Shown here piece after piece: positions 7,612 through 33,267 of a stretch of 64,000 bases of DNA. Both the position numbers and the translations under genes were made by a program. A model generated the notes under the pieces. That model worked only from the letters and a program-made list of their open reading frames with translations. It was not told where the DNA came from and made no database searches. This DNA comes from Candidatus Hydrogenedentota bacterium (GTDB taxonomy: Bacteria; UBA8481; J006), in contig RFFU01000074.1 in assembly GCA_003697085.1 (NCBI GenBank), forward strand, positions 17,562 to 81,561, read 5' to 3'. The first letter of the stretch is position 1, and each line of letters begins with the position of its first letter.

Positions 7612-7758
7612 ATGGCGGAAAAGGAAGCTGAGAAGGTTGAGTCGGATTCCGGGAAGGAGCCGGAGAGGAAAGAGGAGGAGGCGCTTTCCGAGGAGGAGAT
7701 GCGGAAGGTGACGGGGGGACGACTCTTTGGAAATTCGATCGCCGGGCGGGTGCTATGA
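7612..7758 (+). CDS. double-glycine leader peptide precursor A (48 aa: 36-aa leader + 12-aa core RLFGNSIAGRVL)
   Basis: MAEKEAEKVESDSGKEPERKEEEALSEEEMRKVTGG|RLFGNSIAGRVL. L(-12), M(-7), V(-4) and GG(-2,-1) fit the C39-cleaved GG-leader consensus. Strong SD upstream. The leader is paralogous to that of the next gene. An in-frame ATG at 7471 would give a 95-aa form but is not supported by the paralog. Confidence 0.7.
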   Translation: MAEKEAEKVESDSGKEPERKEEEALSEEEMRKVTGGRLFGNSIAGRVL

Positions 7759-7790
7759 CTCGAGTGCTCTTCTTAAATGAGGGCGGAAAT

Positions 7791-7828: not shown

Positions 7829-8515
7829 ATGGCGGAAAAGGAAGACGGGAAGGCAAAAGCCGACAAAGAGAAGGAACCGGAAAGAAAACCGGAGGAACCC
7901 CTTTCGGAGGAGGAGATGAAGGATGTGGCGGGAGGGTTTATTCCCACTCCGGCCACTTTCGGGAATCCCCTTTCGTCCCGGATGGCGTCGAGATTGCGTC
8001 GGCGCGGCGCGGTCGGTCCGGTCGATCCCGAGGAGGCGGTCTCACGCGGTCCGGTCGATCCCGAACAAAGCCGGCGTCCCGACGATCCGAAACACCCGTG
8101 GCACCTTTGCTTCGGCCCGGAGACGCTGGTTCCAACGCGGAAGGGCTATCAGCCTATTTCTGGGATCGCAGTCGGTGACGAGATCGTCAGTGTCACCTTC
8201 GACGGAACCTTGTTCGTCGATCGGGTCGAAAAGCTGGACGTTCACCACGGGGAGATTTCCGTGATCGAACTTTCGTTGGACGACGACGTGATTCTCGTCA
8301 CTCCTGACCATAAGGTCTGGTCGGGCGAGAAATGGATCCGAGCCGCCGACTCGATCTATGTTTCCCGGACGAAGGTGGGAAGAATCGTTCCGGCGGTCTA
8401 TAACCTTCGAACCACCACGGGAACATACCTGGTCGGATACAGCGGACTGCTCGTTTCAGGTGGGCGGGTGGAAGACCTGCATTCCGAGGATCCGGTGGCG
8501 GAGGTTGCTCGGTAG
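7829..8515 (+). CDS. double-glycine leader precursor B fused to a Hint (Hedgehog/intein-like, BIL-type) domain (228 aa)
   Basis: Leader is MAEKEDGKAKADKEKEPERKPEEPLSEEEMKDVAGG, followed by a 57-aa Pro/Arg-rich segment. Cys94 then opens CFGPETLVPT..G..VGDEIVSV, followed by LVTPDHKVW (TxxH) and VYNLRTTTGTYLVGYSGLLVS. The ORF track starts at GTG 7820; ATG 7829 aligns with precursor A. Confidence 0.8.
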   Translation: MAEKEDGKAKADKEKEPERKPEEPLSEEEMKDVAGGFIPTPATFGNPLSSRMASRLRRRGAVGPVDPEEAVSRGPVDPEQSRRPDDPKHPWHLCFGPETLVPTRKGYQPISGIAVGDEIVSVTFDGTLFVDRVEKLDVHHGEISVIELSLDDDVILVTPDHKVWSGEKWIRAADSIYVSRTKVGRIVPAVYNLRTTTGTYLVGYSGLLVSGGRVEDLHSEDPVAEVAR

Positions 8516-8739: not shown

Positions 8740-10986
8740 TTACCCTTGTTGGAACGGTTCCCCCGGCGCTGCCTCCGCCATACGCTCGAGAAAATAGACC
8801 GCCGGGCCGTCGTAGGGAAGTCGTCGTGCGACCTCGGTGATCGATTCCTTGGCACGGGCGACGTCCTTTTCGCGGTAGGCTCGAACGCCCTTCTCCCACG
8901 TTTCCATAACCTCCAGGTAACTCTTCGGGAGCCGTGCGGTTTCATCCACAAGTTCGTAAACATCCAACGCGGCTTTCTGTCCCCGAAGCCGAAAGACTCC
9001 GACGGTACGGAAATAGAACCGGTTTGGAGCGCACTTTTCGACCTCTTGCTTCGTCTCTCCGGACGTCAGGATTGTCGTGCCGAGATCGCGGTTGAGACTT
9101 TCGAGCCGCGAGGCGATATTGACCGTCGTGCCGATGACCGTGTAATCGAAGATCGTTTCGGAACCGAGGTTTCCGGCCACGACTTCGCCTGTATGGATTC
9201 CGATTCGAATGCCGAGATTTGGCCACACTCCGCTGGCCCACGTCTGGGCCAGCTCCGCCACCGCCCGCCGCTTTTCCAGGGCGCAGGAACAGGCGAGCAC
9301 GGCGTGCTTCTCCTGGTGAAGAGGGACGTTCCATTCGGCCATCACCGCGTCGCCGATCATCTTGTCGATCGTTCCGTCGAACGCGACGATCTTCTCGGTC
9401 ATCCTCGTGAAGTAGGTGTTGAGGAAGCGGACCAGATCTTCCGACGGCAACTCCATCGCCCACCGACTGAAGTGTTTGATATCCGAAAAGAGGACGGTCG
9501 CCGTCGTCTTTCGACCGACGAGTGTCAGCGCCGAGGGGTCCTTCAGGATCTCCCGCATTACGGAGGGGGCGACGTATTTCTGAAAGGCCAATCGCAGCCT
9601 CCGTTTCTCCTCGAACTGGTGATAGGTCCAGTCCGACAGGAGGAAGATGCTGGAGGCGAGCAAGGGAGCCGCGACCGGAAGAAGAAAGCCTTTGTTCATC
9701 AGTACTGCGGCGGCTCCCAGAAGAAGAACGCCACTTCCCGCCAAGGATGTCACTCCCCAAACCAGATTGCGGCGCATCCCCCACCATGCAAGAAACGCCG
9801 TGAGGACCGTAAGCAGCCAACCGAGCCACCTTGGAGGGAGCCGGAGGGAGGTGGGATCGAGCAGGGTTGCCGTGGCGTTTGCCAAAATCCGAGTGTAAGG
9901 AAGGGAAACGCCCAAGGGAGTCCGAATCCTCTTCCGAGCGGGACCGATCAAAACGATTCGCCCGGAAAAACGGTCCCGCGACAGCCGTTTCGGCGCGTTA
10001 TCGAAAGCCGCGTCGTGCCACAGGTCGGCGAAGGAAAGCGGTTCCCCTGGAAAGACCTCGAAACGTCCCGCCCGATCCTTTCGATTCCGTTTCGGGTTTC
10101 GGTAATAGTTGACCAGGATGGTTTCGTCCGCATTGGCGGCGCTTTGCTCCCCGAGATTCCGGAGGAGCGAACATCGTGCGCGCCCGTTTCCAGTAAACCC
10201 ACCGGAGTTGCCGGAGAGAGAAGCCGTCCAACCGGCGATCGCCAACGGCAGAGACGGGAAGAAAACGCCCTTGACCTGGAGCCAGAGTGGGAATCCCATC
10301 GTGGGGCGTTCCGGGCGCCGAAAAGCAAGGAAGCCGATCTCCGTTTTCGGAGTCGATACGCGGGACGAGGGAAAAGAGACGCTCGGAACGGAAAGAATTT
10401 TCTTCGGGGGGGTGGAAAAGGAACAGGCGGCCGCGTCGAGTACGGCGGCTTGTTGCCGGTTTGAATTCGCGAAGCCCGAGTCGATTCGGAGAGGCAGGAT
10501 GTTGGGGATTCGATCGAGCGCACTTCGAAAGGAGGCATCCTGTTCTCGGGAGAAGAGGACGGGAAATTCCGCCACGAAGGTTTCGAGTTGGCTCTCTTGT
10601 TCGGCGAGGTGTTTTCGGAGCGCGTCACGGAAGATCGTTGAATTGAGTTTGACGGGAACTTCGTCCAGTACGAAGGGAATGTGGAACGCGACCCCCTGGG
10701 CCCCGTTCTCCGCGAGATATTCGACCACCTTCGCAAAAACACTTCTCGGCCAAGGAGGTTCTCCCATTTCGGGCTTCAGTCTTCGCAAACTTTCGTCATC
10801 GATTTCCACGACCGTGAGGGGCAACTCCGTGGTCGTTTCCCGGTAATGACGGCGTATCCGAAACGCGATGGTTTCTTCCTCGAGACCCTGAACGAGATAG
10901 AACGGGTCCAAGAGGACGAAGAGGACGATCACCGCGAGAAGAAGGGTGCTCGAGTGAGAGAAGTTCTTGACCGACCTAAGAATCAT
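8740..10986 (-). CDS. CHASE2 sensor domain-containing class III adenylate/guanylate cyclase
   Basis: N-terminus VVEIDDESLRRL...GEPPWPRSVFAKVVEYLAENGAQGVAF is CHASE2-like, followed by TM helices. C-terminus TATVLFSDIKHFS...KMIGDAVMA...GIHTGEVVAGNLG...YTVIGTTVNIASRLES is the class III cyclase catalytic core. Confidence 0.9.
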   Translation of the reverse strand: MILRSVKNFSHSSTLLLAVIVLFVLLDPFYLVQGLEEETIAFRIRRHYRETTTELPLTVVEIDDESLRRLKPEMGEPPWPRSVFAKVVEYLAENGAQGVAFHIPFVLDEVPVKLNSTIFRDALRKHLAEQESQLETFVAEFPVLFSREQDASFRSALDRIPNILPLRIDSGFANSNRQQAAVLDAAACSFSTPPKKILSVPSVSFPSSRVSTPKTEIGFLAFRRPERPTMGFPLWLQVKGVFFPSLPLAIAGWTASLSGNSGGFTGNGRARCSLLRNLGEQSAANADETILVNYYRNPKRNRKDRAGRFEVFPGEPLSFADLWHDAAFDNAPKRLSRDRFSGRIVLIGPARKRIRTPLGVSLPYTRILANATATLLDPTSLRLPPRWLGWLLTVLTAFLAWWGMRRNLVWGVTSLAGSGVLLLGAAAVLMNKGFLLPVAAPLLASSIFLLSDWTYHQFEEKRRLRLAFQKYVAPSVMREILKDPSALTLVGRKTTATVLFSDIKHFSRWAMELPSEDLVRFLNTYFTRMTEKIVAFDGTIDKMIGDAVMAEWNVPLHQEKHAVLACSCALEKRRAVAELAQTWASGVWPNLGIRIGIHTGEVVAGNLGSETIFDYTVIGTTVNIASRLESLNRDLGTTILTSGETKQEVEKCAPNRFYFRTVGVFRLRGQKAALDVYELVDETARLPKSYLEVMETWEKGVRAYREKDVARAKESITEVARRLPYDGPAVYFLERMAEAAPGEPFQQG

Positions 10987-11560: not shown

Positions 11561-11718
11561 GTCGCTCGCCGCCGACCGCACCTGTGCATTCCCATTTTTT
11601 CTTTCATTCGCTCTTGAAAATCAATACCAATTGGATTAAACTATAATGCTCTCCTGTTGGAGATTTCGGAGAAGATCGAATTTGAGGAACCGTGGGAGGC
11701 GGGAAGGAGTTCGCGTGT

Positions 11719-12765
11719 ATGAGGTGGTTTTCGCGACGTCTTTTCTCTCTAGGAATGGCGGTTTCGGCTTTGTTTTTGGTGGCGGGAGCCGGGAATGCTT
11801 CCCTCTATTCCTCCAACGGTTTCTATAACGTTACCTTCAACAATCCAACAAACACGAAATATATCGACAAGAGAGCCTCGGATTTCATCGACGCGGCTCA
11901 GTCGTACTGTTACGTCGCGATCTACGCGCTGAATCGCCAGAGGATCGTGGACAGCCTGATCGAGCGTCACCAGGCCGGGGTGGACGTTCGCGTGGTGACC
12001 GAAGCCGATAACCGTAATCACCCCTCCTACAAGGCCGCTTATGATCAACTCGAGGCCGCCGGAATCGTCGTCAAAACCGATAACCGGTCCGCTCTGATGC
12101 ACCACAAGTTCATCGTGGTCGATGATAACGAGGTTCTGACGGGATCCTACAATTTTACCGATGAAGGAACGCAACAGAACAAGAACAATCTCTTGGTCAT
12201 CCACTCCTCGGGCGTCGCTTCGCGTTTCAAGGGAGAGTTCCTCGAGATGTGGGCGGGGAGGTTCGGCAACGCGAAGGCGGATTTCTCGGGGAGAAACACC
12301 GTCAGCGGCGCCACCGTGTACACGAAGTTCGGCCCGAAGGCGAATCTCCGCGCTTCCCTGCTCTACCATCTCAACACCGCCAACGTTTCCGTCTATTTCA
12401 ACATCTTCACCTTCACCGACCAGTCGATCGCGGACAAGTTGGTCGAACTCCACCAGCGCGGTGTTACCGTAAAAGGCACGATGGACGCCTACCAGGCCAC
12501 CGACCAGTATTCGCAGTATCAGTACCTCGTGGCGAACGGCCTGCCGATCAAGCGCGATGCATATGCGGGTTTGTTGCACGACAAATTCATCGCCATCGAC
12601 GCGGGAACCGCCAGCACACCGAAACTGATCACCGGTTCGGCGAACTGGACGGCCGCGGCCGACGAGGAGAACGACGAGGATATGTTGGTCATCTACGACT
12701 ACGACACCGTCGGAAGAAGTTACAAGGGAAACGCCGTTTACGTCTACAACTACAAGGCCTACTGA
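11719..12765 (+). CDS. secreted phospholipase D superfamily protein with two HKD motifs (PLD/Nuc-like)
   Basis: Signal-like N-terminus MRWFSRRLFSLGMAVSALFLVAGAGNA. HKD motifs are HHKFIVVDDNEVLTGSYNFT and LHDKFIAIDAGTASTPKLITGSANWT. Start moved to ATG 11719, with GGGAAGGAG 10 nt upstream. Confidence 0.85.
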   Translation: MRWFSRRLFSLGMAVSALFLVAGAGNASLYSSNGFYNVTFNNPTNTKYIDKRASDFIDAAQSYCYVAIYALNRQRIVDSLIERHQAGVDVRVVTEADNRNHPSYKAAYDQLEAAGIVVKTDNRSALMHHKFIVVDDNEVLTGSYNFTDEGTQQNKNNLLVIHSSGVASRFKGEFLEMWAGRFGNAKADFSGRNTVSGATVYTKFGPKANLRASLLYHLNTANVSVYFNIFTFTDQSIADKLVELHQRGVTVKGTMDAYQATDQYSQYQYLVANGLPIKRDAYAGLLHDKFIAIDAGTASTPKLITGSANWTAAADEENDEDMLVIYDYDTVGRSYKGNAVYVYNYKAY

Positions 12766-13007
12766 GTCGACACGACGAACCTGTATCCTGCGCTTTTTTG
12801 TGCGTATCGAAGAGGCGGACTCAACCCCCCGGTGGTTCGGCCGGCGGATTGGAAAACAAAAACTTTGAGCTGGTATCGCATCGCAGTATACTTTTTCTTG
12901 AATCACAAGGCAGAGGTGCCCGCGTGAAGGCAAAAACGGACGCGTATCCGTTGTAGCGACCGGACGGTGTCGTCCACCACGGCGTCATCGAACCCGATAA
13001 GGATCCT

Positions 13008-13286
13008 GTGGTGCGGGAGATCGTCGGCGAGGCGGCCAAGGTCGAGGGAATCGCCTGGGTCGTCCTTTTCGGTTCCCGCGGCCGGGGGGATCATAATCGC
13101 CGTTCGGATTATGATATCGCAATCTCGGCACCGTTGTTGTCCAGGCAAGATTGGACGTTCTTCGCCTCCCACCTTCGGGATACGGTCCGAACTCTCTGTT
13201 GTCTCGATTTGGTCCGTTGGGAAGATCCCCTCGATCCCGAATTGAGAAGAGAGATCGAACGAGGAATCCGGGTTTACGCGGCGTGA
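13008..13286 (+). CDS. MNT-type nucleotidyltransferase (antitoxin of a HEPN/MNT pair)
   Basis: LFGSRGRGDHNRRSDYDI matches the GSxxxG...SDxD minimal nucleotidyltransferase motif. The stop overlaps the next gene's start (GTGA at 13283-13286). Confidence 0.8.
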   Translation: MVREIVGEAAKVEGIAWVVLFGSRGRGDHNRRSDYDIAISAPLLSRQDWTFFASHLRDTVRTLCCLDLVRWEDPLDPELRREIERGIRVYAA

Positions 13287-13687
13287 ATCGCCTTTCGTCC
13301 TCGATCGAGAACCTGAAATTGGCCTTCGCCGCGCTCGAACGGTTGCTGAAAACCCCCGTCACAGAACCACGCGATCTTTCCGGTATCGTGAAGGATTTCG
13401 AGATCGTCTATGAATTGAGTTGGAAGACCTTGAAAAAATTCCTCGAAAGCGAGGGCCATTCCCCTCGTTCAGCCAGGGAAGCCTTCCTTTTGGCCTTTCA
13501 ACTCGGATACCTGGAGGATGATCGGGTCTGGGTCGAGATGATCGAAGACCGAAACCTCACGGGACACACTTATAATCAACCTTTTGCAGCCTCTTTGGTG
13601 AAGCGGATACGGGAGAAGTATCTCCCCGCTTTGGCGGGACTAAGGAATACGATCGTCTCAGAGAGGGAAAACCAGACCAATCGTTGA
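13283..13687 (+). CDS. HEPN domain / HI0074-family nucleotidyltransferase substrate-binding protein (toxin partner)
   Basis: GTG start overlaps the MNT stop. IEDRNLTGHTYN carries the R-x4-H HEPN motif. The ORF-track N-terminal extension (from 13151) is another reading of the MNT gene region. Confidence 0.8.
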   Translation: MNRLSSSIENLKLAFAALERLLKTPVTEPRDLSGIVKDFEIVYELSWKTLKKFLESEGHSPRSAREAFLLAFQLGYLEDDRVWVEMIEDRNLTGHTYNQPFAASLVKRIREKYLPALAGLRNTIVSERENQTNR

Positions 13688-13859
13688 ATCGCGTTACGAC
13701 TTCCGTCACCCGGCTTCGCAATCTTTCCATAATGACCAGCGATACCGAGTGATGACGAGAGGGAGAACGAGCGTTTGGATAGGCGGGAGGAATGGGATGC
13801 CCGGGCCGCCGCGTTTTCTTGGACGAATCAGCATCTCCCAAAAAGGAATCGACGAAGTC

Positions 13860-14138
13860 TCAACCCCCGTTCCCGAACCGCTGTGCCACAACCAGAAGGA
13901 GTTCTCGAAACCCACCGGGCCGCCGGACAAGCGCAGCCGGATCGGGCAACGACTTCGGCACTTTCGAACCGTCGGTGAAGCCTTGGAGGTAGAGATCCAG
14001 GAAGGAATCGACGAGCGACAATAACTCCTCGAATTGTCCGGGCCCGAGCCGCGAGGCCAGATCGTTCATCAACGTTTCGTCTTCGAGAATCGCCTCGTGA
14101 ACCCGCCGGCGAAAATGAGCCGTGTTTCTTACTGCCAT
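13860..14138 (-). CDS. hypothetical 92-aa helical protein (uncertain)
   Basis: MAVRNTAHFRRRVHEAILEDETLMNDLASRLGPGQFEELLSLVDSFLDLYLQGF... looks protein-like but has no motif I recognise. It ends in FGNGG-stop. Confidence 0.3.
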   Translation of the reverse strand: MAVRNTAHFRRRVHEAILEDETLMNDLASRLGPGQFEELLSLVDSFLDLYLQGFTDGSKVPKSLPDPAALVRRPGGFRELLLVVAQRFGNGG

Positions 14139-14315
14139 TCGATGACTCTATTCTCTCTGTTCCAACGATGCAATTCGATATGGCCGCGCGGGAACGAAGA
14201 AACGGCGAGGGTTTCGGGGCGCGCGGAGATTTGGAGCCGACCGGCCGGTGAAGCGCATAACATCCATTGTGATTTCGTGAAGAGCGGGGCGAACCGACGC
14301 CACCCGGCGCCCCCC

Positions 14316-14672
14316 TGTCCTTCCGAGGAGGCCGAAGGCCAACGAGGAATCCCCCGCGGGAGCGAAACCGGCCCCCTGGAAGTATGGCGAAAAACGGGCA
14401 CCGTTTGTCGGATCGTGTCCGTCCACTCCGGCGCGAAACCCCGCATGGGATCGGGACGGGCGAAAGGTGACCCTCTGCGAACCCGTTTTTGCAGGCAAGA
14501 TGCCTGCCTGTCGGCAGGCAGGCCCGCGCTCCCAGGACACGCTTCCCATTCCCTTTTCGTTTCCCTTCCCCATTCCCTTTTTTTTGCCCTTGCCTTTGCC
14601 CTTGCCCTTCCCGCGTGATACTCCGTGGAGGGGATTCCTCAATCGCCTTACGGCGATTTTCGGAATGATAAA
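14316..14672. repeat. intergenic repeat island upstream of the exporter operon (A variant, F-inverted, C-inverted, B-inverted, A-inverted)
   Basis: 14383-14480 is the reverse complement of 28430-28535 (module F). C inverted at 14485-14536. The C-rich complement of purine module B at 14542-14613. A inverted at 14628-14672. Confidence 0.75.
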
Positions 14673-14875
14673 AGACGCTGTCCTTCCGGGGATGCCGCAG
14701 TCCCGGTGAGGCATCCTCGATGAGGAGGGGCTGCCGACGGCTCGCTTCTCGTCCCCACCTGTCTTTGGGTCTGCGCCCCCGGCAGGAGACAGCCGGATGC
14801 CCCTCTGGATGGCTCACTATGTCCCCGTGTACTTCTGAAACTGTCAAAATGGAAGAATGACACCTTTTTCTTTGT

Positions 14876-15496
14876 ATGATAGGTTGGGAAACGATGCGAA
14901 AGGTCCTTTTCATTCTCGGGCTCCTGACGGATCAGGATGTTGAACGCCTCGGGAGGCTGGGGTCCATCGAGAAGATTTCAGCGGGAGCGACGTTGATAGA
15001 AGCGGGGCGTCATCCCGACAAGGTCTATTTCATACTCAGCGGTATTTTTCGTGTTACGCGGAACGCTGCCGTCGGTACGGAGGGGGCGAGCGAGGGGGCG
15101 GTGGGTTCGAAAAACGTCGTGGCGGAACTGCGCGCGGGTGAAGTATTGGGGGAGATGTCGTTCGTTCAAGATGCGCCGCCGACGGAGACGGTCACGGCGG
15201 TCGGGGAGGGTGAGGTCTTGGCGATACCCCGCGAGGACCTCCGCGCCGTTCTCGAATCGGATCCCGCTTTCGCCTCGCGTTTTTATCAAGCCATCGCCGC
15301 TTTTCTTGCGGATCGCCTGCGCGGAACGATGAACCGGCTCTATGGGAGGCCGACGGAAACGGCGGGAGCGGGAGACGATGACTCGGAGAGAGGAACGATT
15401 CTCGAAGAGGACGAGTTGGATCCCCGCGTTCTTGATCGTGTTTCGCGTGCCGGAGAACGATTCGACCGATTGCTCAAGAAGTTCCGCGGGAGATAA
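14876..15496 (+). CDS. bacteriocin-transport-associated cyclic nucleotide-binding domain protein (cyc_nuc_ocin-like)
   Basis: cNMP-binding beta-barrel: AGATLIEAGRHPDKVYFILSGIFRV...RAGEVLGEMSFVQDAPPTETVTAVGEGEVLAI. First gene of the exporter operon. An alternative ATG lies at 14894. The phosphate-binding-cassette Arg appears replaced (PPTET versus PRSAT). Confidence 0.8.
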   Translation: MIGWETMRKVLFILGLLTDQDVERLGRLGSIEKISAGATLIEAGRHPDKVYFILSGIFRVTRNAAVGTEGASEGAVGSKNVVAELRAGEVLGEMSFVQDAPPTETVTAVGEGEVLAIPREDLRAVLESDPAFASRFYQAIAAFLADRLRGTMNRLYGRPTETAGAGDDDSERGTILEEDELDPRVLDRVSRAGERFDRLLKKFRGR

Positions 15497-15501
15497 GACG
15501 T

Positions 15502-16746
15502 ATGGTCGAATATCGCAAGGCGGCGCTCGATAAACTTGCTTCCCCCGAGCAACTCGACCGTCTCATTACGGTCACCGGTTCCCGTAGTTGGCTCGCTCTG
15601 GGCTCCATCTGTTTTCTTCTTCTCCTGATCCTCGTTTGGAGTGTCGTCGGGCGGATCCCCGTCACCGTCTCGGGACGCGGAATCCTGATCCGGGAGGGGG
15701 GGTTGGTTGAGATCGAGAGTCTGGGGACGGGATTAATTTCGGAGCTCCTGGTGGAGGAAGGGGATCACGTGGAGCCGGGCCAGCTGGTCGCTCGGATCCG
15801 ACAACCGACGCTCGTAACGGAGATCGAACAAGCGCGGGATCGGGTGCAGGAGCTCGAGGTGCAGCGGGAACGGACTTCGAAGCTAGAGTCGGAACGTGTC
15901 CGGCTGGGGGCCGCCGCGCTCGACCAACAGGAGGCGGAATTGCGAGGAACGATCCGCACCTCTCGGGAACGTGTTGCGTGGTTGGAGAAGCGGGTGGAGG
16001 CCTATCGCGATGCTGTTCGCGAGGGGCTGATCACGGAGGAGGAGTTGCGGCGGGTGATGAAGGAACGGGCGAGCGAGCGGGAGGTGATCGCGCGGGCCGA
16101 ATCCCGTCTCAAGAAGATCGCGTCGGATCGCCAAGCGCTGGAGACCGAGCGGGAGCGAAATCTTCTTGCGATCGACAAACAGCTCAGCGACGCCCGGCGG
16201 ACGCTGGCGGCTTTGGAGTCGCGGCTTCGCGAGGAAGGGCAGGTGTTTTCTCCGCACCGGGGCCGGGTCGTGGAGATCAAGGTCGAGCAAGGAGCGATTG
16301 TGACGAGGAACGCGGCCCTGATGAGTCTCGAGGCGGAAACGGGCCCGCTGGTCGCCGAGGTTTTCATTCCGGTCGAGGCGAAGAAGATACGCCGTGGGAT
16401 GGCGGCGCGGATCGCTCCCGCCACGGTGAAAAAGGAAGAGTACGGGATGATTGTCGGGCGCGTGGACGGTGTCTCGGCGCTTCCCGCCACGCGGGAAGGG
16501 ATGATGCATCTTTTGAAGAACGAATTGTTGGTCAAAGAACTGGCTTCGCGCGGCGCCCCCTTCCGTGTCACGTTGTCGCTCGAGGAGGATTCGGCGAGTT
16601 TCAGCGGTTTCCGATGGACCTCCTCGCGCGGGCCGAGAGTGCGGATCGAAAGCGGGATGCTCTGCGAGGGACGGATCGTCGTGGAGAAGAAGGCGCCGAT
16701 CCGCTTTCTTATTCCGGCGCTCAAGTCCTTCTTCGGCATAACGTAA
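15502..16746 (+). CDS. NHLM-type bacteriocin system secretion adaptor (HlyD family membrane fusion protein)
   Basis: N-terminus YRKAALDKLASPEQLDRLITVT, one TM helix, a long coiled coil, then barrel-type domains. Positioned directly before the C39-ABC gene. Confidence 0.88.
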   Translation: MVEYRKAALDKLASPEQLDRLITVTGSRSWLALGSICFLLLLILVWSVVGRIPVTVSGRGILIREGGLVEIESLGTGLISELLVEEGDHVEPGQLVARIRQPTLVTEIEQARDRVQELEVQRERTSKLESERVRLGAAALDQQEAELRGTIRTSRERVAWLEKRVEAYRDAVREGLITEEELRRVMKERASEREVIARAESRLKKIASDRQALETERERNLLAIDKQLSDARRTLAALESRLREEGQVFSPHRGRVVEIKVEQGAIVTRNAALMSLEAETGPLVAEVFIPVEAKKIRRGMAARIAPATVKKEEYGMIVGRVDGVSALPATREGMMHLLKNELLVKELASRGAPFRVTLSLEEDSASFSGFRWTSSRGPRVRIESGMLCEGRIVVEKKAPIRFLIPALKSFFGIT

Positions 16747-16757
16747 CTCGGAGAACG

Positions 16758-18962
16758 ATGGCTGTCGCCGCCGCGGAAGGTATCAAACCGTCTTCGGGAA
16801 AACCGCGGTTCCGTCGTGTCCGAACGCCGACGGTTCTTCAGATGGAGGCGGTGGAGTGCGGCGCGGCATCGCTGGCGATTATTCTCGAGTATTACGGCCG
16901 CGTGGTTCCGCTCGAGGAACTTCGCGTCGCATGCGGGGTGACGCGGGACGGAAGCAACGCCTTTCATTTGATCTCGGCTGCGCGGGAGTACGGATTCGAA
17001 GCCCACGGATACCGAAAGGACATTCCCCACCTCTACAACATCAAACCGCCCTTCATCATCTTCTGGAACTTCAACCATTTTTTGGTCGTCGAGGGATTGG
17101 CCAAGGATCGCGTTTTTCTCAACGATCCCGCGATGGGACCGCGCGTCGTTCCGATGGACGAATTCAACGAGTCCTACACCGGCGTTGTTCTGACCTTTGA
17201 ACCGACGCCGCGCTTCAGGAGAGGGGGACGCCGTCCGAGCCTGTCAGCGGCGGTCTGGAACCGCGTACGCCACTCTTCCGAAGGCATCGCCTACGCCGCT
17301 GTGGCGGCCGTCGCGCTCGTCGGCCCCGGATTGGCGGTTCCCGCCTTTTCGCGGATCTTCATCGATGACATTCTCATCGGCGGAATGCACGACTGGATCC
17401 GTCCCGTCCTGCTCGGTTTGGCGATCACTGGGTTTTTTCGCGTCTTTCTTACCTTTCTCCAGTCCCATTCTCTTCTTCGGCTCGAAACGAAACTTTCGAT
17501 CACCCAGACCGGTCGCTTTTTGCACCATATCCTTCATCTTCCCGTCTCGTTCTACCAGCAGCGTTACGGCGGAGAAATCAGCAACCGAGTCGGTTTCAAT
17601 TCGGACATCGCCCGCATCCTTTCGAACCGTCTCGCCGGAACGATCCTGGACCTTTTCATGACTGTCTTTTATGGAACGGTTCTCTTTCTGCTTTCTCCGG
17701 TGTTGATGCTGATTGCGGTTCTGGGAGTGGCCGCGAATGCCGTTACGGCTCGGACGATGCATCGGACCCTGACCGACGAGAACCTCCGTCTTCAGCAAGA
17801 GGCCGGAGCGACTTTGTCCGCGGCGATGTCCGGCGTGGCCTCGATCGAGACGCTGAAGGCGACGGGGAGCGAATCGGACTTCTTCGCGAACTGGGCGGGG
17901 CATCACGCGAAATACACGGTGACGATGCAAAACCTGAGTCTCAAAAGTGCTCTCTATTCCTCCCTCTCGACCCTCGTGAATTCCCTTTCGGACGTGGCGA
18001 TTCTGGGAGCCGGGGCCCTTCTGATTATGAACGGCCGCATCACGATGGGAACCTTTGTCGCCTTTCACGCGCTCTCCGCCTCCTTTGCGGGTCCGGTGAC
18101 GCGGATCATCAATCTCGCGACGGTGATTCAAGCCTTGCGCGCGCGCCTTGTCCGTCTCGACGACGTGCTCAATCACAAACACGCGCCGGACCTGCGGGTC
18201 GCGGAATCGACGCCGGTCGTTGCAGAAGAGGAAGAGAAACTTTCGGGACATCTCGAGATCCGCAATCTCACCTTCGGCTATTCGCGTTTCGATCCGCCGT
18301 TGATCGAGAATTTTTCGATGACGATCGCTCCGGGCGGGCGCGTGGCTTTGGTGGGGGCATCGGGATGCGGGAAATCGACATTGGCGAAACTGATCACCGG
18401 ATTGTACGAGCCGTGGGAGGGTGAGATTTATTTCGACGGACGTCCGCGAAAGGCGATCCCGCGTTCCGTGCTTACGAGCTCCGTTGCGATGGTGGATCAA
18501 GAGATTTCACTCTTTTCCGGAACCATTCGCGAGAACATTACACTTTGGGACGAGACGATTCCGGATATCGAAGTGGTGCGGGCGGCCAAGGATGCGGCGA
18601 TTCACTCCGAGATCACAGCGCGCGCGGGGGGATATGACGCGGAGTTGGAGGAGGGAGGAGCGAATCTTTCCGGCGGTCAACGCCAGAGGCTGGAGATCGC
18701 CCGGGCGCTCGTGACGAATCCTCGCCTGCTGATTCTGGACGAGGCGACCAGCGCTCTCGATCCCGTGACCGAGAAGGAGATCGATCGCAATCTGCGGGTG
18801 CGCGGTTGTACCTGCGTGATCGTCGCCCATCGGCTTTCGACGATTCGCGACGCGGACGAGATCATCGTCCTTGAACGCGGCCGGGTGGTTCAAAGGGGGA
18901 CGCACGAGGAATTGATCGCCGATCCGGACGCGCCGTATGCGCGATTGGTAAAGGCTCAATGA
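16758..18962 (+). CDS. peptidase C39 domain-containing ABC transporter (NHLM-type ABC1, peptidase/permease/ATPase)
   Basis: C39 domain reads VLQMEAVECGAASLAIILEYYG (Gln28/Cys34), NHFLVVEG (His), LNDP (Asp). Six-helix TMD. Walker A GASGCGKST, signature LSGGQRQR, Walker B LILDEATSALD. The ORF-track start at 15978 is an upstream out-of-gene extension; ATG 16758 lies 11 nt after the HlyD stop. Confidence 0.92.
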   Translation: MAVAAAEGIKPSSGKPRFRRVRTPTVLQMEAVECGAASLAIILEYYGRVVPLEELRVACGVTRDGSNAFHLISAAREYGFEAHGYRKDIPHLYNIKPPFIIFWNFNHFLVVEGLAKDRVFLNDPAMGPRVVPMDEFNESYTGVVLTFEPTPRFRRGGRRPSLSAAVWNRVRHSSEGIAYAAVAAVALVGPGLAVPAFSRIFIDDILIGGMHDWIRPVLLGLAITGFFRVFLTFLQSHSLLRLETKLSITQTGRFLHHILHLPVSFYQQRYGGEISNRVGFNSDIARILSNRLAGTILDLFMTVFYGTVLFLLSPVLMLIAVLGVAANAVTARTMHRTLTDENLRLQQEAGATLSAAMSGVASIETLKATGSESDFFANWAGHHAKYTVTMQNLSLKSALYSSLSTLVNSLSDVAILGAGALLIMNGRITMGTFVAFHALSASFAGPVTRIINLATVIQALRARLVRLDDVLNHKHAPDLRVAESTPVVAEEEEKLSGHLEIRNLTFGYSRFDPPLIENFSMTIAPGGRVALVGASGCGKSTLAKLITGLYEPWEGEIYFDGRPRKAIPRSVLTSSVAMVDQEISLFSGTIRENITLWDETIPDIEVVRAAKDAAIHSEITARAGGYDAELEEGGANLSGGQRQRLEIARALVTNPRLLILDEATSALDPVTEKEIDRNLRVRGCTCVIVAHRLSTIRDADEIIVLERGRVVQRGTHEELIADPDAPYARLVKAQ

Positions 18963-21877
18963 CGGCGCGCGATCTGCTCGCGTCTCTCGCTCGGCTCGGT
19001 CCAGAACGGGATGTGAGCGGGAAGGAGACGTTCTACGTTCAGGGAGCCGAACGCGCGTGGGTCCTGACGAAAGGCGTTGTCGATGTCTTCGCGGTTATGC
19101 TCGAGGACGAGCGGCCCATCGGCCCGCGACATTACCTCTTCAGCGCCTCGCCGGGAATCATTCTCTTCGGTGTCGATCTTCTCCGCTACCACAAGCGTTG
19201 TGCTCTGTTGGCGGTCGGAGTTCCGGGAACGCGTGTTGTTTCCTTCGGCATCGCGGATTTGGTCGAGACGGCCCGGCGAAGTGGAACGCTGGAGGCGCTG
19301 GCGAGGCAGATTGAGGATTTTTCTGGAAAGGTAGGGGCGCTCTTCACCGCTCGTGAGCGGCCACCGTTCGATGAATTTCTCGCCGTGGGAGAGGAACGAG
19401 AGGTTCCGGCGGGTCGTGTTCTCGGAACGGAGCGCGGAATTACTTGGGTCCACGTGATCGGGGGGAAGGTCCGGCTCTGTGGTTTCGAGGATCTCGTCGT
19501 GGAGGCCGACGGCACCGCCGTTCCTCTCGCCCCGGGGCTTTGGCTCGAAACACTTATTGCGTCACATCTCGAGGTGATCGACAGCCGCGCGTTGCTTGAA
19601 CGCGATCCGCGCCTGAAGGCGTTGGGAAATTTGCAAGCCGTATATGTCCGATGGATCGAGGACCGCATCGCGGCGAAGCGGGCCGAGGAGCGGGAACGAA
19701 TTTCCCGGAGGCGTGAGCGGGATCAGGCGATTCTTGCCAAGGCTCTGGAGGATCTTAGCAGTGTTCTTGTCGGAAAAGGGCGCGCCGTGCCGGAGCACGA
19801 TCGTCCTCTGTTGGCCGCCTTGAATCGGATCGGCGCCGCGCTCGATTTGGATTTTCACCTTCCTTCGGAGTGGGAGTTGAGCCGGTACGGCGCCGCGCCT
19901 CTCGAGGCCATCTGCCGCCGTTCGCGGATCCGCCACCGGCGGGTGGCCCTTTACGGAGATTGGTATCGCCGGGACAACGGGCCGTTATTGGTCTTTCGAG
20001 ACAAGGAGCACGGGGCAACGCCCGTAGCCGCGGTTCCTCTTTCGGAGTCGCAGTACGAATACTTTGACCCTGTCACGGGAGCGACGGGGATTCTGACGCG
20101 GGATGTTGCCGCCACGCTCGATCCCTTCGGCGTGATGTTTTATCCTCCGCTTCCCGCAAAACCGCTTCACGTCTTTCAACTACTCAGACACGGAAGCCGG
20201 TTCGTTTCGAAGGACCTCCGGCGGGTGTTGGGGTTGAGTTTGGCGGCCGGCGCGCTTTCGCTGGCGTTGCCGTGGGCGACAGGGCTCCTTTTCAGCGACG
20301 TGATTCCTTCTTCCGAGCGACCGCTTCTTCTGCAGGTTGTTTTAGCGCTGTTGATCGCTTCTTCCGTCCAGACGCTCTTCCATTTCGTTCGCACGATTGC
20401 GCTGACGCGGATGCGGGCACGGTGGGGCGAGACGGTTCAGGCGGCGCTGTGGGACCGGATCGCTTCCTTGCCTCCGCGATTCTTCCGCCGCTTCACCGTC
20501 GGGGATCTCGTGGATCGCGCCGAGGTCGTGGATCACCTGCGCGAGGAACTCAGCGGCGCCGGGCTGACGGCCATCATCGGCGGGTTGATGTCGCTGATGC
20601 AATTTATTTTGATGTTCTACTATAGCCGGGTTCTCGCTCTGGGAGCCTTGGGAATCACGGCGCTCTTTGCTCTCGTGACCGGAGGCCTTGCCGTGGGAAT
20701 GCTGCGGTACGAGAGGGAGATGCAGAGGATCGCGGGGCGCCTCTCGGGTTTTCTTTACCAGGTGATCACCGGCATTGCCAAGATTCGGGTGGCGGGGGCC
20801 GAGGAACGGGCGTTTGCGGAATGGGCGCGACGGTTCCGCCGCGAACGCCTTCTCCGCTTCCGGGCCGGCTCCTACCAGAACATCATTCTCACCGTCAATG
20901 CCGGGCTGCCGATCCTTTCGACGATTCTCGTCTTTCTCCTTGTGCGTTATGCCGCGTTGCTCCCGGAGGGAGCCTGGATCAGTGTCGGGGATTTCATTGC
21001 CTTCAACGCCGCGATGACCGTCTTCCTCAACTCCGCGCTTTCGCTTACCGACACGGCGGTCAACCTTCTCAACCTCGTCCCGATGTTCGAACGCGTCGAG
21101 CCGATTCTTGTGACGGAGCCGGAAGCGCGGGAGGATCGGCCGGATCCGGGGCGCATCACCGGTTCTGTCGAGATGAGTCACGTTTCGTTTCGGTATCATC
21201 CCGACGGGCCGCTTGTTCTCGACGATGTTTCGTGGTCGGCGGCGCCCGGGGAGTTCGTTGCGTTGGTCGGGCCGTCCGGGGGAGGCAAATCGACGATCAT
21301 CCGGTTGTTGCTGGGATTCGAAATCCCGGAGACGGGAAACATCTATTTCGATGGGAGGGATGTATCGGCGGTGGACGTCACGGCGTTGCGGCGTCAGATC
21401 GGAGTCGTTCTCCAGAACAGCCGGCTCCGCCCCGGCTCGATCTTCGACAATATCGTCGGTTCCTCGAATCTTACCCTCGATGATGCCTGGCGTGTGGCCG
21501 AGCAGGCGGGTTTGAAGGAGGATATCGAGGCGATGCCGATGGGAATGCACACGAACATTTCCGAGGGAGGGACGACGTTTTCGGGGGGGCAGCGACAACG
21601 AATTCTGATCGCCCGCGCGCTGATTCATCAACCGCGAATCCTGATCTTCGACGAAGCGACGAGTGCCCTGGACAACACGACGCAGAAAGTCGTCTCCGAC
21701 AGTCTCGACCGTCTCAATGCAACGCGGATCGTGATCGCCCATCGCCTTTCGACGATCCGAAATGCCGACAGAATCTATGTAATCGAGAAGGGAAGGATTG
21801 TACAACGGGGAAACTACGAGGAATTGATGACGGAGGGAGGTCTATTCACCGACCTCGCGCGCCGTCAACTCGCTTAG
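18959..21877 (+). CDS. second ABC transporter of the NHLM-type system (ABC2; long N-terminal regulatory-like domain, no peptidase)
   Basis: ATGA overlap with ABC1. About 400-aa N-terminal region with a degenerate cNMP-barrel-like start, then a TMD, Walker A GPSGGGKST, signature FSGGQRQR, Walker B LIFDEATSALD. Confidence 0.9.
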   Translation: MTARDLLASLARLGPERDVSGKETFYVQGAERAWVLTKGVVDVFAVMLEDERPIGPRHYLFSASPGIILFGVDLLRYHKRCALLAVGVPGTRVVSFGIADLVETARRSGTLEALARQIEDFSGKVGALFTARERPPFDEFLAVGEEREVPAGRVLGTERGITWVHVIGGKVRLCGFEDLVVEADGTAVPLAPGLWLETLIASHLEVIDSRALLERDPRLKALGNLQAVYVRWIEDRIAAKRAEERERISRRRERDQAILAKALEDLSSVLVGKGRAVPEHDRPLLAALNRIGAALDLDFHLPSEWELSRYGAAPLEAICRRSRIRHRRVALYGDWYRRDNGPLLVFRDKEHGATPVAAVPLSESQYEYFDPVTGATGILTRDVAATLDPFGVMFYPPLPAKPLHVFQLLRHGSRFVSKDLRRVLGLSLAAGALSLALPWATGLLFSDVIPSSERPLLLQVVLALLIASSVQTLFHFVRTIALTRMRARWGETVQAALWDRIASLPPRFFRRFTVGDLVDRAEVVDHLREELSGAGLTAIIGGLMSLMQFILMFYYSRVLALGALGITALFALVTGGLAVGMLRYEREMQRIAGRLSGFLYQVITGIAKIRVAGAEERAFAEWARRFRRERLLRFRAGSYQNIILTVNAGLPILSTILVFLLVRYAALLPEGAWISVGDFIAFNAAMTVFLNSALSLTDTAVNLLNLVPMFERVEPILVTEPEAREDRPDPGRITGSVEMSHVSFRYHPDGPLVLDDVSWSAAPGEFVALVGPSGGGKSTIIRLLLGFEIPETGNIYFDGRDVSAVDVTALRRQIGVVLQNSRLRPGSIFDNIVGSSNLTLDDAWRVAEQAGLKEDIEAMPMGMHTNISEGGTTFSGGQRQRILIARALIHQPRILIFDEATSALDNTTQKVVSDSLDRLNATRIVIAHRLSTIRNADRIYVIEKGRIVQRGNYEELMTEGGLFTDLARRQLA

Positions 21878-28364: not shown

Positions 28365-28535
28365 ACAGGTATTCCTGGGAGCGCAGGCCCGCCTGCTGGC
28401 AGGCAGGCATCTTGCCTCTGCAATGACGGACTCGGAGAAGGTTACCTTTCGGCCGCCCCGATCCTATGCAGGGGGTTCGCCTAGGGAGTGGTCTGATACG
28501 ATTCGGCGAAAGCTTCCCGTTTTTCGCCATGCACC
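28365..28535. repeat. intergenic repeats (module C variant + module F)
   Basis: CCTGGGAGCGCAGGCCCGCCTGCTGGCAGGCAGGCATCTTGCC..., followed by ~100 bp whose reverse complement recurs at 14383-14480. Confidence 0.7.
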
Positions 28536-28597: not shown

Positions 28598-28672
28598 GGC
28601 GGCGTAGCTCAGAGGTAGAGCAGAGGTCTCATAAGCCTCGTGTCGGCGGTTCGATTCCGCCCGCCGCTACCA
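28598..28672 (+). tRNA. tRNA-Met (anticodon CAT; elongator type, tRNA-Ile2 cannot be excluded)
   Basis: Manual cloverleaf: GGCGGCG/TA/GCTC-AGAGGTA-GAGC/A/GAGGT-CTCATAA-GCCTC/GTGTC/GGCGG-TTCGATT-CCGCC/CGCCGCT/A/CCA. 75 nt with encoded CCA. Confidence 0.9.
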
Positions 28673-29406: not shown

Positions 29407-29408
29407 CG

Positions 29409-32344: not shown

Positions 32345-32357
32345 GGAGGTCCCGCGC

Positions 32358-33260: not shown

Positions 33261-33267
33261 TCCGGCT

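What the first reader, a model, noticed from the sequence alone, without database searches (positions are those of the whole stretch)
14876..21877. Complete NHLM-type export module whose only candidate substrates in the window are the Hint-linked GG precursors
SEEN:
- A four-gene same-strand block with tiny gaps or overlaps (6 nt, 11 nt, ATGA): cNMP-domain protein, HlyD-like adaptor starting YRKAALDKLASPEQLD, ABC transporter with N-terminal C39 domain, and a second 972-aa ABC protein without peptidase.
- The C39 catalytic residues are intact (Gln28, Cys34 in ECGAAS, NHF His, NDP Asp).

ESTABLISHED: This gene quartet is the transport cassette described for nitrile-hydratase-leader/Nif11-leader microcin systems (TIGRFAM families for the NHLM HlyD, ABC1, ABC2 and the cyc_nuc_ocin protein, as I recall them).

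SEEN: Scanning the six-frame track, I find no NHLP- or Nif11-like precursor. The only ORFs with a canonical GG leader are at 7612-7758 and 7829-8515, 6.4 kb upstream. A cyclase, a PLD-family gene and a TA pair lie between them and the exporter.

INFERENCE: The exporter processes and secretes those two precursors. No outer-membrane channel gene is in the window.
Basis: partly seen in the sequence, partly recalled or inferred. Interest (0 to 1): 0.6.

Follow-up and report, generated by a model that had tools for sequence, protein, structure and literature searches.

The report
Peptide exporter beside self-cleaving double-glycine precursors
This is an ordinary, already auto-annotated bacteriocin-type peptide export pump, but the only plausible cargo genes near it are unusual: two short-leader peptides, one fused to a self-cleaving Hint (intein/Hedgehog-like) domain.

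Summary
The four-gene block is real and is an NHLM-type (NHLP/Nif11-associated) export cassette. HlyD, C39-ABC and second ABC all exceed NCBIfam cutoffs (348/156, 1027/853, 876/709 bits). The cNMP protein does not (131.7 vs 161); it is a half-length form that recurs beside related cassettes. The C39 residues Q28, C34, H107 and D123 are present.

No NHLP or Nif11 precursor, second C39 gene or TolC-type channel was found in the window. The ORFs at 7612 and 7829 are the only canonical double-glycine leaders. They are tandem paralogues with 36-aa leaders: DNA identity is 76% up to the GG codons and 24% after. Both carry the L-12, M-7, V-4, GG recognition pattern.

The exporter-cargo link remains inference. 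They are separate transcription units 6.4 kb apart. One related cassette (L030) has a similar short acidic GG-leader peptide next to its HlyD gene; two others have no precursor nearby.

The 228-aa precursor ends in a confidently modelled Hint domain (C94, T158, H161). At least seven clusters share this leader-core-Hint layout, one with a genuine lantibiotic leader.

Verdict: known exporter type; the Hint-linked cargo I found undescribed in the paper library I searched.

The parts
14876..15496 (+). Single-domain cyclic-nucleotide-binding companion protein (206 aa; the start is more likely 14894). It is a half-length relative of the 'cyc_nuc_ocin' bacteriocin-transport-associated protein.
   Evidence: Pfam cNMP_binding 65.5 bits. 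TIGR03896 131.7 bits against a cutoff of 161.05, profile positions 137-317 of 317 only. It is 43% identical to the 182-aa cNMP protein that follows ABC2 in L027, including a conserved DDELDP..LD.V..AG.RF..LL tail. Orthologues in L027 and L030 give the same half-profile, sub-cutoff match.
15502..16746 (+). HlyD-type periplasmic adaptor (membrane fusion protein) of the NHLM export cassette, 414 aa
   Evidence: TIGR03794 348.4 bits against a cutoff of 156.2, full length. NCBI names it 'NHLP bacteriocin system secretion protein'. The closest relatives are 45% identical.
16758..18962 (+). Peptidase-containing ABC transporter (PCAT/AMS type; 'ABC1'), 734 aa: C39 peptidase, transmembrane domain and ATPase
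   Evidence: TIGR03796 1027.4 bits against a cutoff of 853.3. Pfam Peptidase_C39 124 bits at residues 23-151. Q28, C34, H107 and D123 are present. It aligns end to end with PCAT1 (4ry2, E 4e-103) and ComA (8hf4).
18959..21877 (+). Second ABC permease/ATPase without peptidase ('ABC2'), 972 aa, with a conserved N-terminal extension of about 280 aa of unknown family
   Evidence: TIGR03797 876.3 bits against a cutoff of 709.4, covering residues 281-971. There is no C39 hit. Residues 1-280 have no Pfam or NCBIfam hit but are conserved in the ABC2 of L027 and L029. The fold is undetermined.
7612..7758 (+). Candidate cargo 1: a 48-aa double-glycine precursor with a 36-aa acidic leader ending LSEEEMRKVTGG and a 12-aa core, RLFGNSIAGRVL
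   Evidence: Translation. GGAGAAAGGAGAGG ribosome-binding site. It is a paralogue of the next gene, with similarity ending exactly at the GG codons. Weak sub-threshold hits to GG-leader bacteriocin models.
7829..8515 (+). Candidate cargo 2: a 228-aa precursor made of a 36-aa GG leader (7829-7936), a 57-aa Pro/Arg-rich core predicted to be disordered (7937-8107), and a Hint autoprocessing domain starting at Cys94 (8108-8512)
   Evidence: Translation. Homologues share the same leader-core-DPKHP..CF-Hint layout. All 9 family members hit Pfam Hint_2. In the AlphaFold model the Hint part has block-mean pLDDT about 80-95, with one dip to 68, and the core is below 50. Foldseek top hits are BIL domains, inteins and the Hedgehog autoprocessing domain, probability 1.0.
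8740..10986 (-). CHASE2-sensor adenylate/guanylate cyclase. It is a possible source of the nucleotide read by the cNMP protein; this link is speculative.
   Evidence: Pfam CHASE2 84.8 bits and Guanylate_cyc 83.5 bits. No cyclase lies next to the related cassettes in L027 or L030.

Best explanation
Genes 14876-21877 encode the inner-membrane and periplasmic parts of an NHLM-type, peptidase-containing type I exporter. The parts are a HlyD adaptor, an ABC half-transporter with an active C39 cysteine peptidase (ABC1), a second ABC half-transporter without peptidase (ABC2), and a small cyclic-nucleotide-binding accessory protein. The outer-membrane channel must be encoded elsewhere.

The most likely cargo is the tandem gene pair at 7612-8515. 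The C39 domain binds the amphipathic end of the 36-aa leader (L-12, M-7, V-4), cuts after Gly-Gly, and feeds the core into the transporter.

For the 228-aa precursor, the C-terminal Hint domain is inferred to cut itself off first. It would do this by an N-to-S acyl shift at His-Leu|Cys94. The exported product would then be the 57-residue core, with its N-terminus set by C39 and its C-terminus set by the Hint domain. The 48-aa gene would yield a 12-residue peptide.

Shown here: gene identities, catalytic residues, leader features, Hint fold, and recurrence of the architecture. Inferred: that this exporter handles these peptides, that the Hint domain cleaves, the order of events, and any regulation by cyclic nucleotide.
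For: Cassette:
- TIGR03794, TIGR03796 and TIGR03797 are all above their cutoffs.
- C39 domain and residues are present.
- ABC1 aligns full-length with PCAT1 and ComA.
- The genes are translationally coupled: 5-nt gap, 11-nt gap, ATGA overlap.
- The same HlyD-ABC1-ABC2-short-cNMP set occurs in L027 and L030, and both pass the same models.

Cargo:
- These are the only canonical GG leaders in the window.
- No NHLP or Nif11 hit was found among 72 intergenic ORFs.
- The two leaders share 24 of 36 residues. DNA identity is 121/160 up to the GG codons and 10/41 after.
- The last 13 residues, (A/P)LSEEEM..V.GG, fit the NHLP/N11P/TIGR01847 cleavage-region logo.
- They also fit the Val-4/Leu-7/Leu-12 pockets and the 13-residue minimal motif shown for LahT150.
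- L030 has MSEKTESKTENVLSEDELEKVSGG|RMSV... about 275 bp from its HlyD gene, divergently oriented.
- Haft et al. state that this cassette is more widespread than NHLP and that precursors may lie at a distance.

Hint:
- Searches support the fold. C94, D137, T158 and H161 are invariant.
- P0023 is a free-standing 69-aa homologue of leader plus core. It ends where the Hint junction would be.
- P0041 joins a leader that passes the TIGR03898 lantibiotic model (64.2 bits against a cutoff of 23.5) to a Hint domain.
Against: - The precursor pair and the exporter are not one operon. A terminator-like hairpin follows 8515.
- A convergent cyclase gene, a PLD-family gene, toxin-antitoxin-type genes and 1.2 kb of non-coding DNA with a dispersed repeat lie between them.
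- No transporter is seen next to the four other GG-Hint genes examined, although those contigs are only 1.9-9 kb.
- Related cassettes in L027 and L029 have no GG peptide nearby, and the L032 gene list shows none either, so adjacency is not a rule.
- Only 64 kb of a contig of at least 199.7 kb was available, and the rest of the genome was not.
- No outer-membrane factor is in the window.
- The leader and core give only sub-threshold hits to curated bacteriocin models.
- Hint self-cleavage and C39 cleavage are untested.
Confidence: 0.55

Rival explanations
1. The cassette's real substrates are encoded elsewhere in the genome, as NHLP, Nif11 or other double-glycine peptides, possibly next to tailoring enzymes. 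The two GG genes 6.4 kb away would then be handled only incidentally, or by another transporter.
For: - Haft et al. describe precursors located far from their export genes.
- Related cassettes in L027 and L029 have no GG peptide nearby, and the L032 gene list shows none either.
- The intervening genes look like unrelated insertions.
- Only about a third of the contig was visible (one search gives 199,724 bp).
Against: - No other precursor or C39 gene lies within 64 kb.
- The leaders fit the recognition motif.
- C39 domains are promiscuous towards any leader with this motif, so even then these peptides would probably still be cut.
- L030 pairs the same cassette type with a similar short leader.
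Confidence: 0.28
2. The 228-aa protein is not an exported peptide precursor. It would be a small Hint-domain protein with another role, for example a remnant or module of polymorphic-toxin-type or surface proteins. The 48-aa ORF would be a decayed duplicate, and the resemblance to GG leaders would be fortuitous.
For: - The same Hint subfamily ends 2300-2400-aa proteins in Planctomycetes (L006, L009) and occurs in small forms without a leader (L007, L008; P0008-P0010).
- Pfam PT-HINT hits occur in 5 of 9 members.
- The window protein itself is below the Hint_2 cutoff.
Against: - The leader is conserved while the core diverges exactly at GG.
- Both genes have strong identical ribosome-binding sites.
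- GG or GA leaders precede the Hint domain in at least seven independent clusters with four unrelated leader types, one a validated lantibiotic leader.
- P0023 conserves leader plus core without a Hint domain.
Confidence: 0.1
3. The block is an orphan or inactive exporter with no working substrate in this organism. It would lack an outer-membrane partner, and its accessory protein would be truncated.
For: - No OMF gene is in the window, whereas the related L027 cassette has one immediately upstream.
- The cNMP protein is half the length of the TIGR03896 model.
Against: - All four ORFs are intact, translationally coupled and carry catalytic and ATPase motifs.
- The short cNMP form is conserved in L027 and L030, so it is a variant and not a truncation.
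- An OMF shared from elsewhere in the genome is normal for type I systems (own knowledge: E. coli HlyBD uses an unlinked tolC).
Confidence: 0.07

Closest known systems
NHLP/Nif11-associated three-gene export cassette (TIGR03794 HlyD, TIGR03796 ABC-peptidase, TIGR03797 ABC; Haft, Basu & Mitchell 2010, PMC2887384)
   Same: All three models are passed, in the same order and tightly coupled. There is a C39 peptidase on one ABC protein only, and a cNMP-binding accessory gene is attached.
   Different: - No NHLP or Nif11 precursor lies within 64 kb.
- The candidate leaders are 36 aa, not about 70-83 aa. They share only the last 13 residues or so with NHLP/N11P.
- The accessory protein is a single-domain half of TIGR03896 and falls below its cutoff.
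- No tailoring enzyme (cyclodehydratase, LanM) is nearby.
Peptidase-containing ABC transporters (PCAT1 of Clostridium thermocellum, ComA, LahT, LanT)
   Same: ABC1 aligns over its full length with PCAT1 and ComA. The Q/C/H/D residues are present. The substrate motif L-12, L/M-7, V-4, GG is present in both candidate leaders.
   Different: Those are homodimers from Gram-positive bacteria. Here two different ABC proteins, one of them without peptidase, plus a HlyD adaptor imply a heteromeric, envelope-spanning machine.
Class II bacteriocin and pheromone double-glycine leaders (TIGR01847 type; ComC/BlpC)
   Same: Short leader, acidic residues, LS.EE(L/M)..V.GG. A 12-residue mature peptide is pheromone-sized.
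   Different: - The leader N-terminus is an unusual Lys/Glu-rich stretch.
- Only sub-threshold hits to curated models.
- The host is a Hydrogenedentota MAG.
- No histidine kinase/response regulator pair is adjacent.
Hint superfamily: Hedgehog C-terminal autoprocessing domain, bacterial intein-like (BIL) domains, inteins
   Same: Predicted fold matches BIL2, the C. thermocellum BIL domain, mini-inteins and Hedgehog HhC. There is a first-residue Cys and a T-x-x-H motif. The Asp at relative position 44 has spacing like Hedgehog D46 (own knowledge).
   Different: - The domain sits at the very C-terminus with no His-Asn plus nucleophile junction, so it cannot splice and can only release what lies upstream.
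- The upstream part is a double-glycine-leader peptide. I found no report of this in the paper library.

Membership tests
NHLM (NHLP/Nif11-type) bacteriocin export cassette | HlyD-like adaptor scoring above the TIGR03794 cutoff | tested here: met
   348.4 bits against 156.2, profile positions 1-421
NHLM (NHLP/Nif11-type) bacteriocin export cassette | ABC transporter with N-terminal C39 peptidase scoring above the TIGR03796 cutoff | tested here: met
   1027.4 bits against 853.3. Peptidase_C39 124 bits. Q28, C34, H107, D123 present.
NHLM (NHLP/Nif11-type) bacteriocin export cassette | Second ABC permease/ATPase lacking the peptidase, above the TIGR03797 cutoff | tested here: met
   876.3 bits against 709.4, residues 281-971. 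No C39 hit.
NHLM (NHLP/Nif11-type) bacteriocin export cassette | Co-occurrence with NHLP (TIGR03793) or Nif11-derived (TIGR03798) precursors in the genome | tested here: not met
   None among the 72 intergenic ORFs of at least 55 aa or the called genes of the 64-kb window. The rest of the genome could not be searched. Haft et al. note that the cassette is more widespread than NHLP.
cyc_nuc_ocin bacteriocin-transport-associated protein (TIGR03896) | Score above the curated cutoff over the 317-position profile | tested here: not met
   131.7 bits against 161.05, profile positions 137-317 only. The orthologues beside the cassettes in L027 (138 bits) and L030 (119.6 bits) behave the same way. This is a conserved single-domain variant, not a member by the curated test.
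Peptidase-containing ABC transporter (PCAT/AMS) | C39 domain with catalytic Cys/His/Asp and oxyanion Gln, fused to a type I exporter core | tested here: met
   Full-length alignment to PCAT1 and ComA chains.
Peptidase-containing ABC transporter (PCAT/AMS) | Cleavage of the cargo after Gly-Gly, coupled to export | not testable with these tools
   Needs a biochemical assay.
Tripartite type I secretion system of diderm bacteria | TolC-family outer-membrane factor | tested here: not met
   No PF02321/TolC hit in any scanned gene of the window. tblastn with the L027 OMF found nothing. The related cassette in L027 has one directly upstream.
Double-glycine leader peptide (substrate class of C39 transporters) | Hydrophobic residues at -12, -7 and -4 and Gly-Gly at -2/-1 within the last 13 leader residues | tested here: met
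   ALSEEEMRKVTGG and PLSEEEMKDVAGG.
Double-glycine leader peptide (substrate class of C39 transporters) | Match to a curated bacteriocin or leader model above its cutoff | tested here: not met
   Best hits are 16.8 bits (lactococcin G-alpha, cutoff 37) and 16.4 bits (TIGR04149, cutoff 25).
Hint (Hedgehog/intein) autoprocessing domain | Hint fold with a nucleophilic first residue and a T-x-x-H motif | tested here: met
   The window protein alone scores 18.7 bits against the 28.4 Hint_2 cutoff. All 9 family members hit Hint_2, best E 8.8e-9. C94, T158 and H161 are invariant. The model has block-mean pLDDT about 80-95, with one dip to 68, and matches BIL, intein and Hedgehog structures.
Intein (protein splicing element) | C-terminal His-Asn followed by a Cys/Ser/Thr extein residue | tested here: not met
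   The domain ends ...LVSGGRVEDLHSEDPVAEVAR-stop, with no downstream extein. It is therefore not an intein; at most it can cleave at its N-terminus.

The most novel reading that the evidence does not exclude
A type I/PCAT exporter secretes a ribosomal peptide whose two ends are made by two different proteolytic devices. The transporter's C39 domain removes the leader. A cis-acting Hedgehog-like Hint domain removes itself from the C-terminus through a thioester, which could leave the peptide activated for C-terminal modification, ligation or cyclisation. This would define a new class of precursor, 'leader-core-Hint', found with several leader types including lantibiotic leaders. Export might in addition be gated by cyclic nucleotide made by the neighbouring CHASE2 cyclase, possibly in response to the exported 12-residue peptide.
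Probability: 0.2. Interest if true: 0.75.

Novelty: new variant of a known kind. Interest (0 to 1): 0.45.

Why it matters
The exporter adds little by itself. It is a further member of a cassette described in 2010 and named automatically by NCBI.

What matters is the cargo it points to. If the cassette handles these genes, NHLM-type exporters also serve short-leader peptides outside the NHLP/Nif11 families, as Haft et al. anticipated.

A C-terminal Hint domain on a double-glycine precursor would be a new way to define the end of a secreted peptide. It might also chemically activate that end. The same layout on a lantibiotic-type leader (P0041) suggests a general and overlooked 'follower domain' in ribosomal peptide biosynthesis.

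The idea is directly testable with a few constructs. Self-cleaving, thioester-forming follower domains would also be useful tools for peptide engineering.

Tried and rejected
- The search for related loci with Hint-family alignments A2 and A3 failed because no stretch was conserved enough. I replaced it with a degenerate DNA pattern for YN(L/I)RT..G(T/S)Y(L/I)(V/I)G. That found 5 PVC-group loci, none with a GG leader or a transporter in the 8-kb pieces.
- The metagenome scan with the HlyD protein returned only distant generic HlyD genes.
- The search for homologous proteins with ABC2 residues 1-420 returned nothing, so that search was wasted.
- I tested whether the ABC2 N-terminus is a cNMP-binding domain. 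BLASTP showed no similarity. hhalign gave probability 0.5%. The single-sequence AlphaFold model had pLDDT 39.6 and is unusable. Result: inconclusive.
- I tested whether ABC2 residues 271-440 form a degenerate C39-like domain. BLASTP against the ABC1 C39 domain showed no significant similarity, so I make no such claim.
- The look-up of the CAAX-protease gene, meant to extend beyond the window start, failed because that product is not on record.
- The neighbourhoods of GG-Hint homologues P0002, P0003, P0005, P0006 and P0023 sit on contigs of 1.9-9 kb with no transporter. This is uninformative rather than negative.
- The 1.2 kb upstream of the cassette (13688-14875) was examined for a hidden precursor. 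It holds only Arg/Pro-rich junk ORFs and a dispersed repeat.
- Sigma-70 promoter scans found nothing above chance.
- Rfam found only three tRNAs.

Full report
**Observation.** The four + strand ORFs exist as described:
- 14876-15496 (206 aa)
- 15502-16746 (414 aa, starting MVEYRKAALDKLASPEQLD)
- 16758-18962 (734 aa)
- 18959-21877 (972 aa)

The junctions are a 5-nt gap, an 11-nt gap and an ATGA overlap. Alignment with an orthologue suggests the first gene really starts at the ATG at 14894. The window comes from a Candidatus Hydrogenedentota metagenome-assembled genome. NCBI already names the HlyD gene 'NHLP bacteriocin system secretion protein'.

**Identity of the cassette.** The scores against NCBIfam are:

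| Protein | Model | Score (bits) | Cutoff (bits) |
|---|---|---|---|
| HlyD | TIGR03794 | 348.4 | 156.2 |
| ABC1 | TIGR03796 | 1027.4 | 853.3 |
| ABC2 | TIGR03797 | 876.3 | 709.4 |
| cNMP protein | TIGR03896 | 131.7 | 161.05 |

- Pfam finds Peptidase_C39, ABC_membrane and ABC_tran in ABC1, and only the last two in ABC2.
- Q28, C34, H107 and D123 are in place.
- ABC1 aligns end to end with the solved transporters PCAT1 and ComA.
- The cNMP protein has a clear cNMP_binding domain (65.5 bits) but fails TIGR03896, matching profile positions 137-317 only.

This is not decay. Two related cassettes also pass TIGR03794, TIGR03796 and TIGR03797 and are followed by 182-aa and 169-aa cNMP proteins. One is in a Myxococcales MAG (L027) and one on a 4.9-Mb contig (L030). 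Their cNMP proteins give the same half-profile, sub-cutoff match. The L027 protein is 43% identical to the window protein, including a conserved acidic C-terminal tail. The quartet is therefore a conserved variant of the cassette of Haft et al. 2010 with a single-domain accessory protein.

ABC2 carries about 280 extra N-terminal residues. They are conserved among these cassettes, but I could not assign a fold.

**What else is in the window.** No TolC/OEP-family gene was detected in any gene scanned. A tblastn with the L027 outer-membrane factor was also empty. In L027 such a gene sits directly upstream of HlyD. The rest of the window is polysaccharide and housekeeping genes. Between precursors and exporter lie:
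- a CHASE2-adenylate/guanylate cyclase on the minus strand
- a PLD/NucT-like gene
- a HEPN-type gene preceded by a small ORF with no family hit (the presumed MNT partner)
- 1.2 kb of non-coding DNA carrying a dispersed repeat

**Candidate substrates.** A six-frame motif scan finds a canonical double-glycine leader only at 7612-7758 and 7829-8515. None of the 72 intergenic ORFs of at least 55 aa hit an NHLP, Nif11 or other precursor model.

The two genes are tandem paralogues:
- Their ribosome-binding sites are identical.
- Both leaders are 36 aa, with 24 of 36 residues identical.
- DNA identity is 121/160 up to the last Gly codon and 10/41 immediately after.

A conserved leader with a diverged core is the pattern expected of ribosomal peptide precursors.

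The leader ends, ALSEEEMRKVTGG and PLSEEEMKDVAGG, match the cleavage-region logo that Haft et al. give for NHLP/N11P and class II bacteriocin leaders. That logo has Leu at positions 2 and 7, Ser/Thr at 3, acidic residues at 4 and 6, Val/Leu at 10, and GG at 12-13. They also place L, M and V at -12, -7 and -4. These are the residues that dock into the hydrophobic groove of the LahT C39 domain, whose minimal recognition element is the last 13 leader residues. By sequence they are competent C39 substrates.

**Link between exporter and precursors.** This remains inference.

In favour:
- There is no rival precursor or second C39 gene in 64 kb.
- They are close: 6.4 kb apart. If the genome is a few megabases (an assumption), a random locus would fall that close less than about 1% of the time.
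- L030 encodes MSEKTESKTENVLSEDELEKVSGG|RMSVEGMHAEGSHAQGAHAQGAHAQGVHAELGKKAV. This is a short Lys/Glu-rich leader of the same style, about 275 bp from the HlyD start and divergently oriented.

Against:
- The precursors are a separate unit ending in a terminator-like hairpin.
- The intervening genes look unrelated.
- L027 and L029 have no GG peptide nearby, and the L032 gene list shows none either.
- The four other GG-Hint genes I could place lie on contigs too short to show a transporter.
- The rest of the genome is unseen.

**The Hint-linked precursor.** An exhaustive HMMER search of 1.84 billion representative proteins gave 126 hits. Among them, at least seven clusters have a GG or GA leader, a variable low-complexity core, a conserved DPKHP..(C)F junction and a C-terminal Hint domain: P0001, P0002, P0003, P0005, P0006, P0027 and P0041.
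- The leaders are of unrelated types.
- P0041's leader passes the mersacidin/lichenicidin lantibiotic model TIGR03898 (64.2 bits against 23.5) and precedes a Ser/Thr/Cys-rich core.
- All nine aligned members hit Pfam Hint_2.
- C94, D137, T158 and H161 are invariant.
- An AlphaFold model built from the alignment gives block-mean pLDDT of about 80-95 for the Hint part (one dip to 68), a short helix over LSEEEMK, and a disordered core.
- Foldseek matches BIL domains, mini-inteins and the Hedgehog autoprocessing domain.
- There is no C-terminal His-Asn/extein junction, so this is not an intein. At most it can release what lies N-terminal to Cys94.
- P0023 is a free-standing 69-aa homologue of leader plus core (53% identity). 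It stops about where the Hint junction would be. This fits the idea that the mature product is the core alone.
- The same Hint subfamily also ends very large Planctomycete proteins and occurs in small forms without a leader. The Hint domain is therefore a portable C-terminal module and is not specific to peptide precursors.
- I found no paper in the searchable library that joins Hint domains with double-glycine, bacteriocin or lanthipeptide precursors.

**Mechanism proposed.** The Hint domain self-cleaves at Leu93|Cys94 through a thioester (inferred). The C39 domain of ABC1 cuts after Gly36 (inferred from motifs). An ABC1/ABC2 heteromer with HlyD and an unlinked outer-membrane channel exports the 57-residue core and the 12-residue peptide (inferred). 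The cNMP protein, and perhaps the neighbouring CHASE2 cyclase, would modulate export. That last step is speculative, because no cyclase lies next to the L027 or L030 cassettes.

**Verdict.** Its assignment to the NHLM cassette is right for three of the four genes. Its inference about cargo is reasonable and somewhat strengthened, but unproven. The exporter is a new member of a known kind. With short-leader, Hint-linked candidate cargo and a single-domain cNMP companion, the system as a whole is a new variant of a known kind.

Noticed in passing
window 7829-8515; proteins P0002, P0003, P0005, P0006, P0027, P0041, P0023: A recurrent but rare 'double-glycine leader - variable core - DPKHP..CF - Hint domain' architecture, seen in at least 7 representative clusters out of 1.84 billion proteins. 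One member (P0041) has a leader that passes the mersacidin/lichenicidin lantibiotic model. P0023 is a Hint-less 69-aa version of the window's leader plus core.
   Followed up: partly
L006 99-7370 (-) and L009 3-6959 (+): The same Hint subfamily forms the extreme C-terminus of surface-type repeat proteins of about 2300-2400 aa in Planctomycetes MAGs. This suggests Hedgehog-like C-terminal self-removal in giant bacterial proteins.
   Followed up: no
window 14316-14640; also 28373-28530, 29766-29984, 39974-40334, 41587-41627: A dispersed intergenic repeat of about 120-250 bp, 80-89% identical between copies. One copy lies about 240 bp upstream of the exporter operon. Its translation gives the recurring GKGKGKGKKKG / PFPFPF strings.
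   Followed up: partly
window 8740-10986 (-): A CHASE2 extracellular-sensor adenylate/guanylate cyclase lies between the GG precursors and an exporter that carries a cNMP-binding accessory protein. A peptide-sensing, cyclic-nucleotide feedback loop is conceivable. No cyclase accompanies the related cassettes in L027 or L030.
   Followed up: partly
window 18959-19798 (ABC2 residues 1-280): An N-terminal extension conserved in the ABC2 proteins of L027 and L029, with no Pfam, NCBIfam or PDB sequence match. The predicted secondary structure is an eight-strand beta region followed by helices and a long helix, but the model confidence is too low to use.
   Followed up: partly
window 11692-12765 (+) and 12967-13687 (+): A two-domain PLD/NucT-like protein with weak similarity to DISARM DrmC and DpdK. 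Next to it is a HEPN-type gene (HI0074/NTase_sub_bind, 13151-13687), preceded by a small overlapping ORF (12967-13245) that hit no family and is presumably the MNT partner. These look like defence or mobile genes inserted between precursors and exporter.
   Followed up: no
window 709-1584 (-) and 1660-2718 (-): A CAAX/Rce1-like intramembrane protease, a family often linked to bacteriocin immunity, and an EF-hand lipoprotein-like gene lie about 6 kb upstream of the precursors. Any relation to the peptide system is untested.
   Followed up: no
window 30344-39835 (+): A MoxR AAA ATPase - DUF58 - BatA/VWA - TPR - BatD - TPR operon (Bat aerotolerance-type cluster).
   Followed up: no
window 40869-41491 (-): A VapC (PIN) toxin and AbrB/SpoVT-type antitoxin pair inside a repeat-rich intergenic stretch.
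   Followed up: no
window 28598-28672 (+), 29408-29482 (-), 59058-59145 (-): Two tRNA-Met genes in opposite orientation flank a cob(I)alamin adenosyltransferase gene. There is also a tRNA-Leu(taa).
   Followed up: no
L026 2464-2784 (+): In an unrelated metagenome contig, a GG-leader peptide (…MRELTLDELDEVSGG|GGKKGKHGGGKKGKHGGG… repeats) lies just upstream of a distant HlyD homologue.
   Followed up: no
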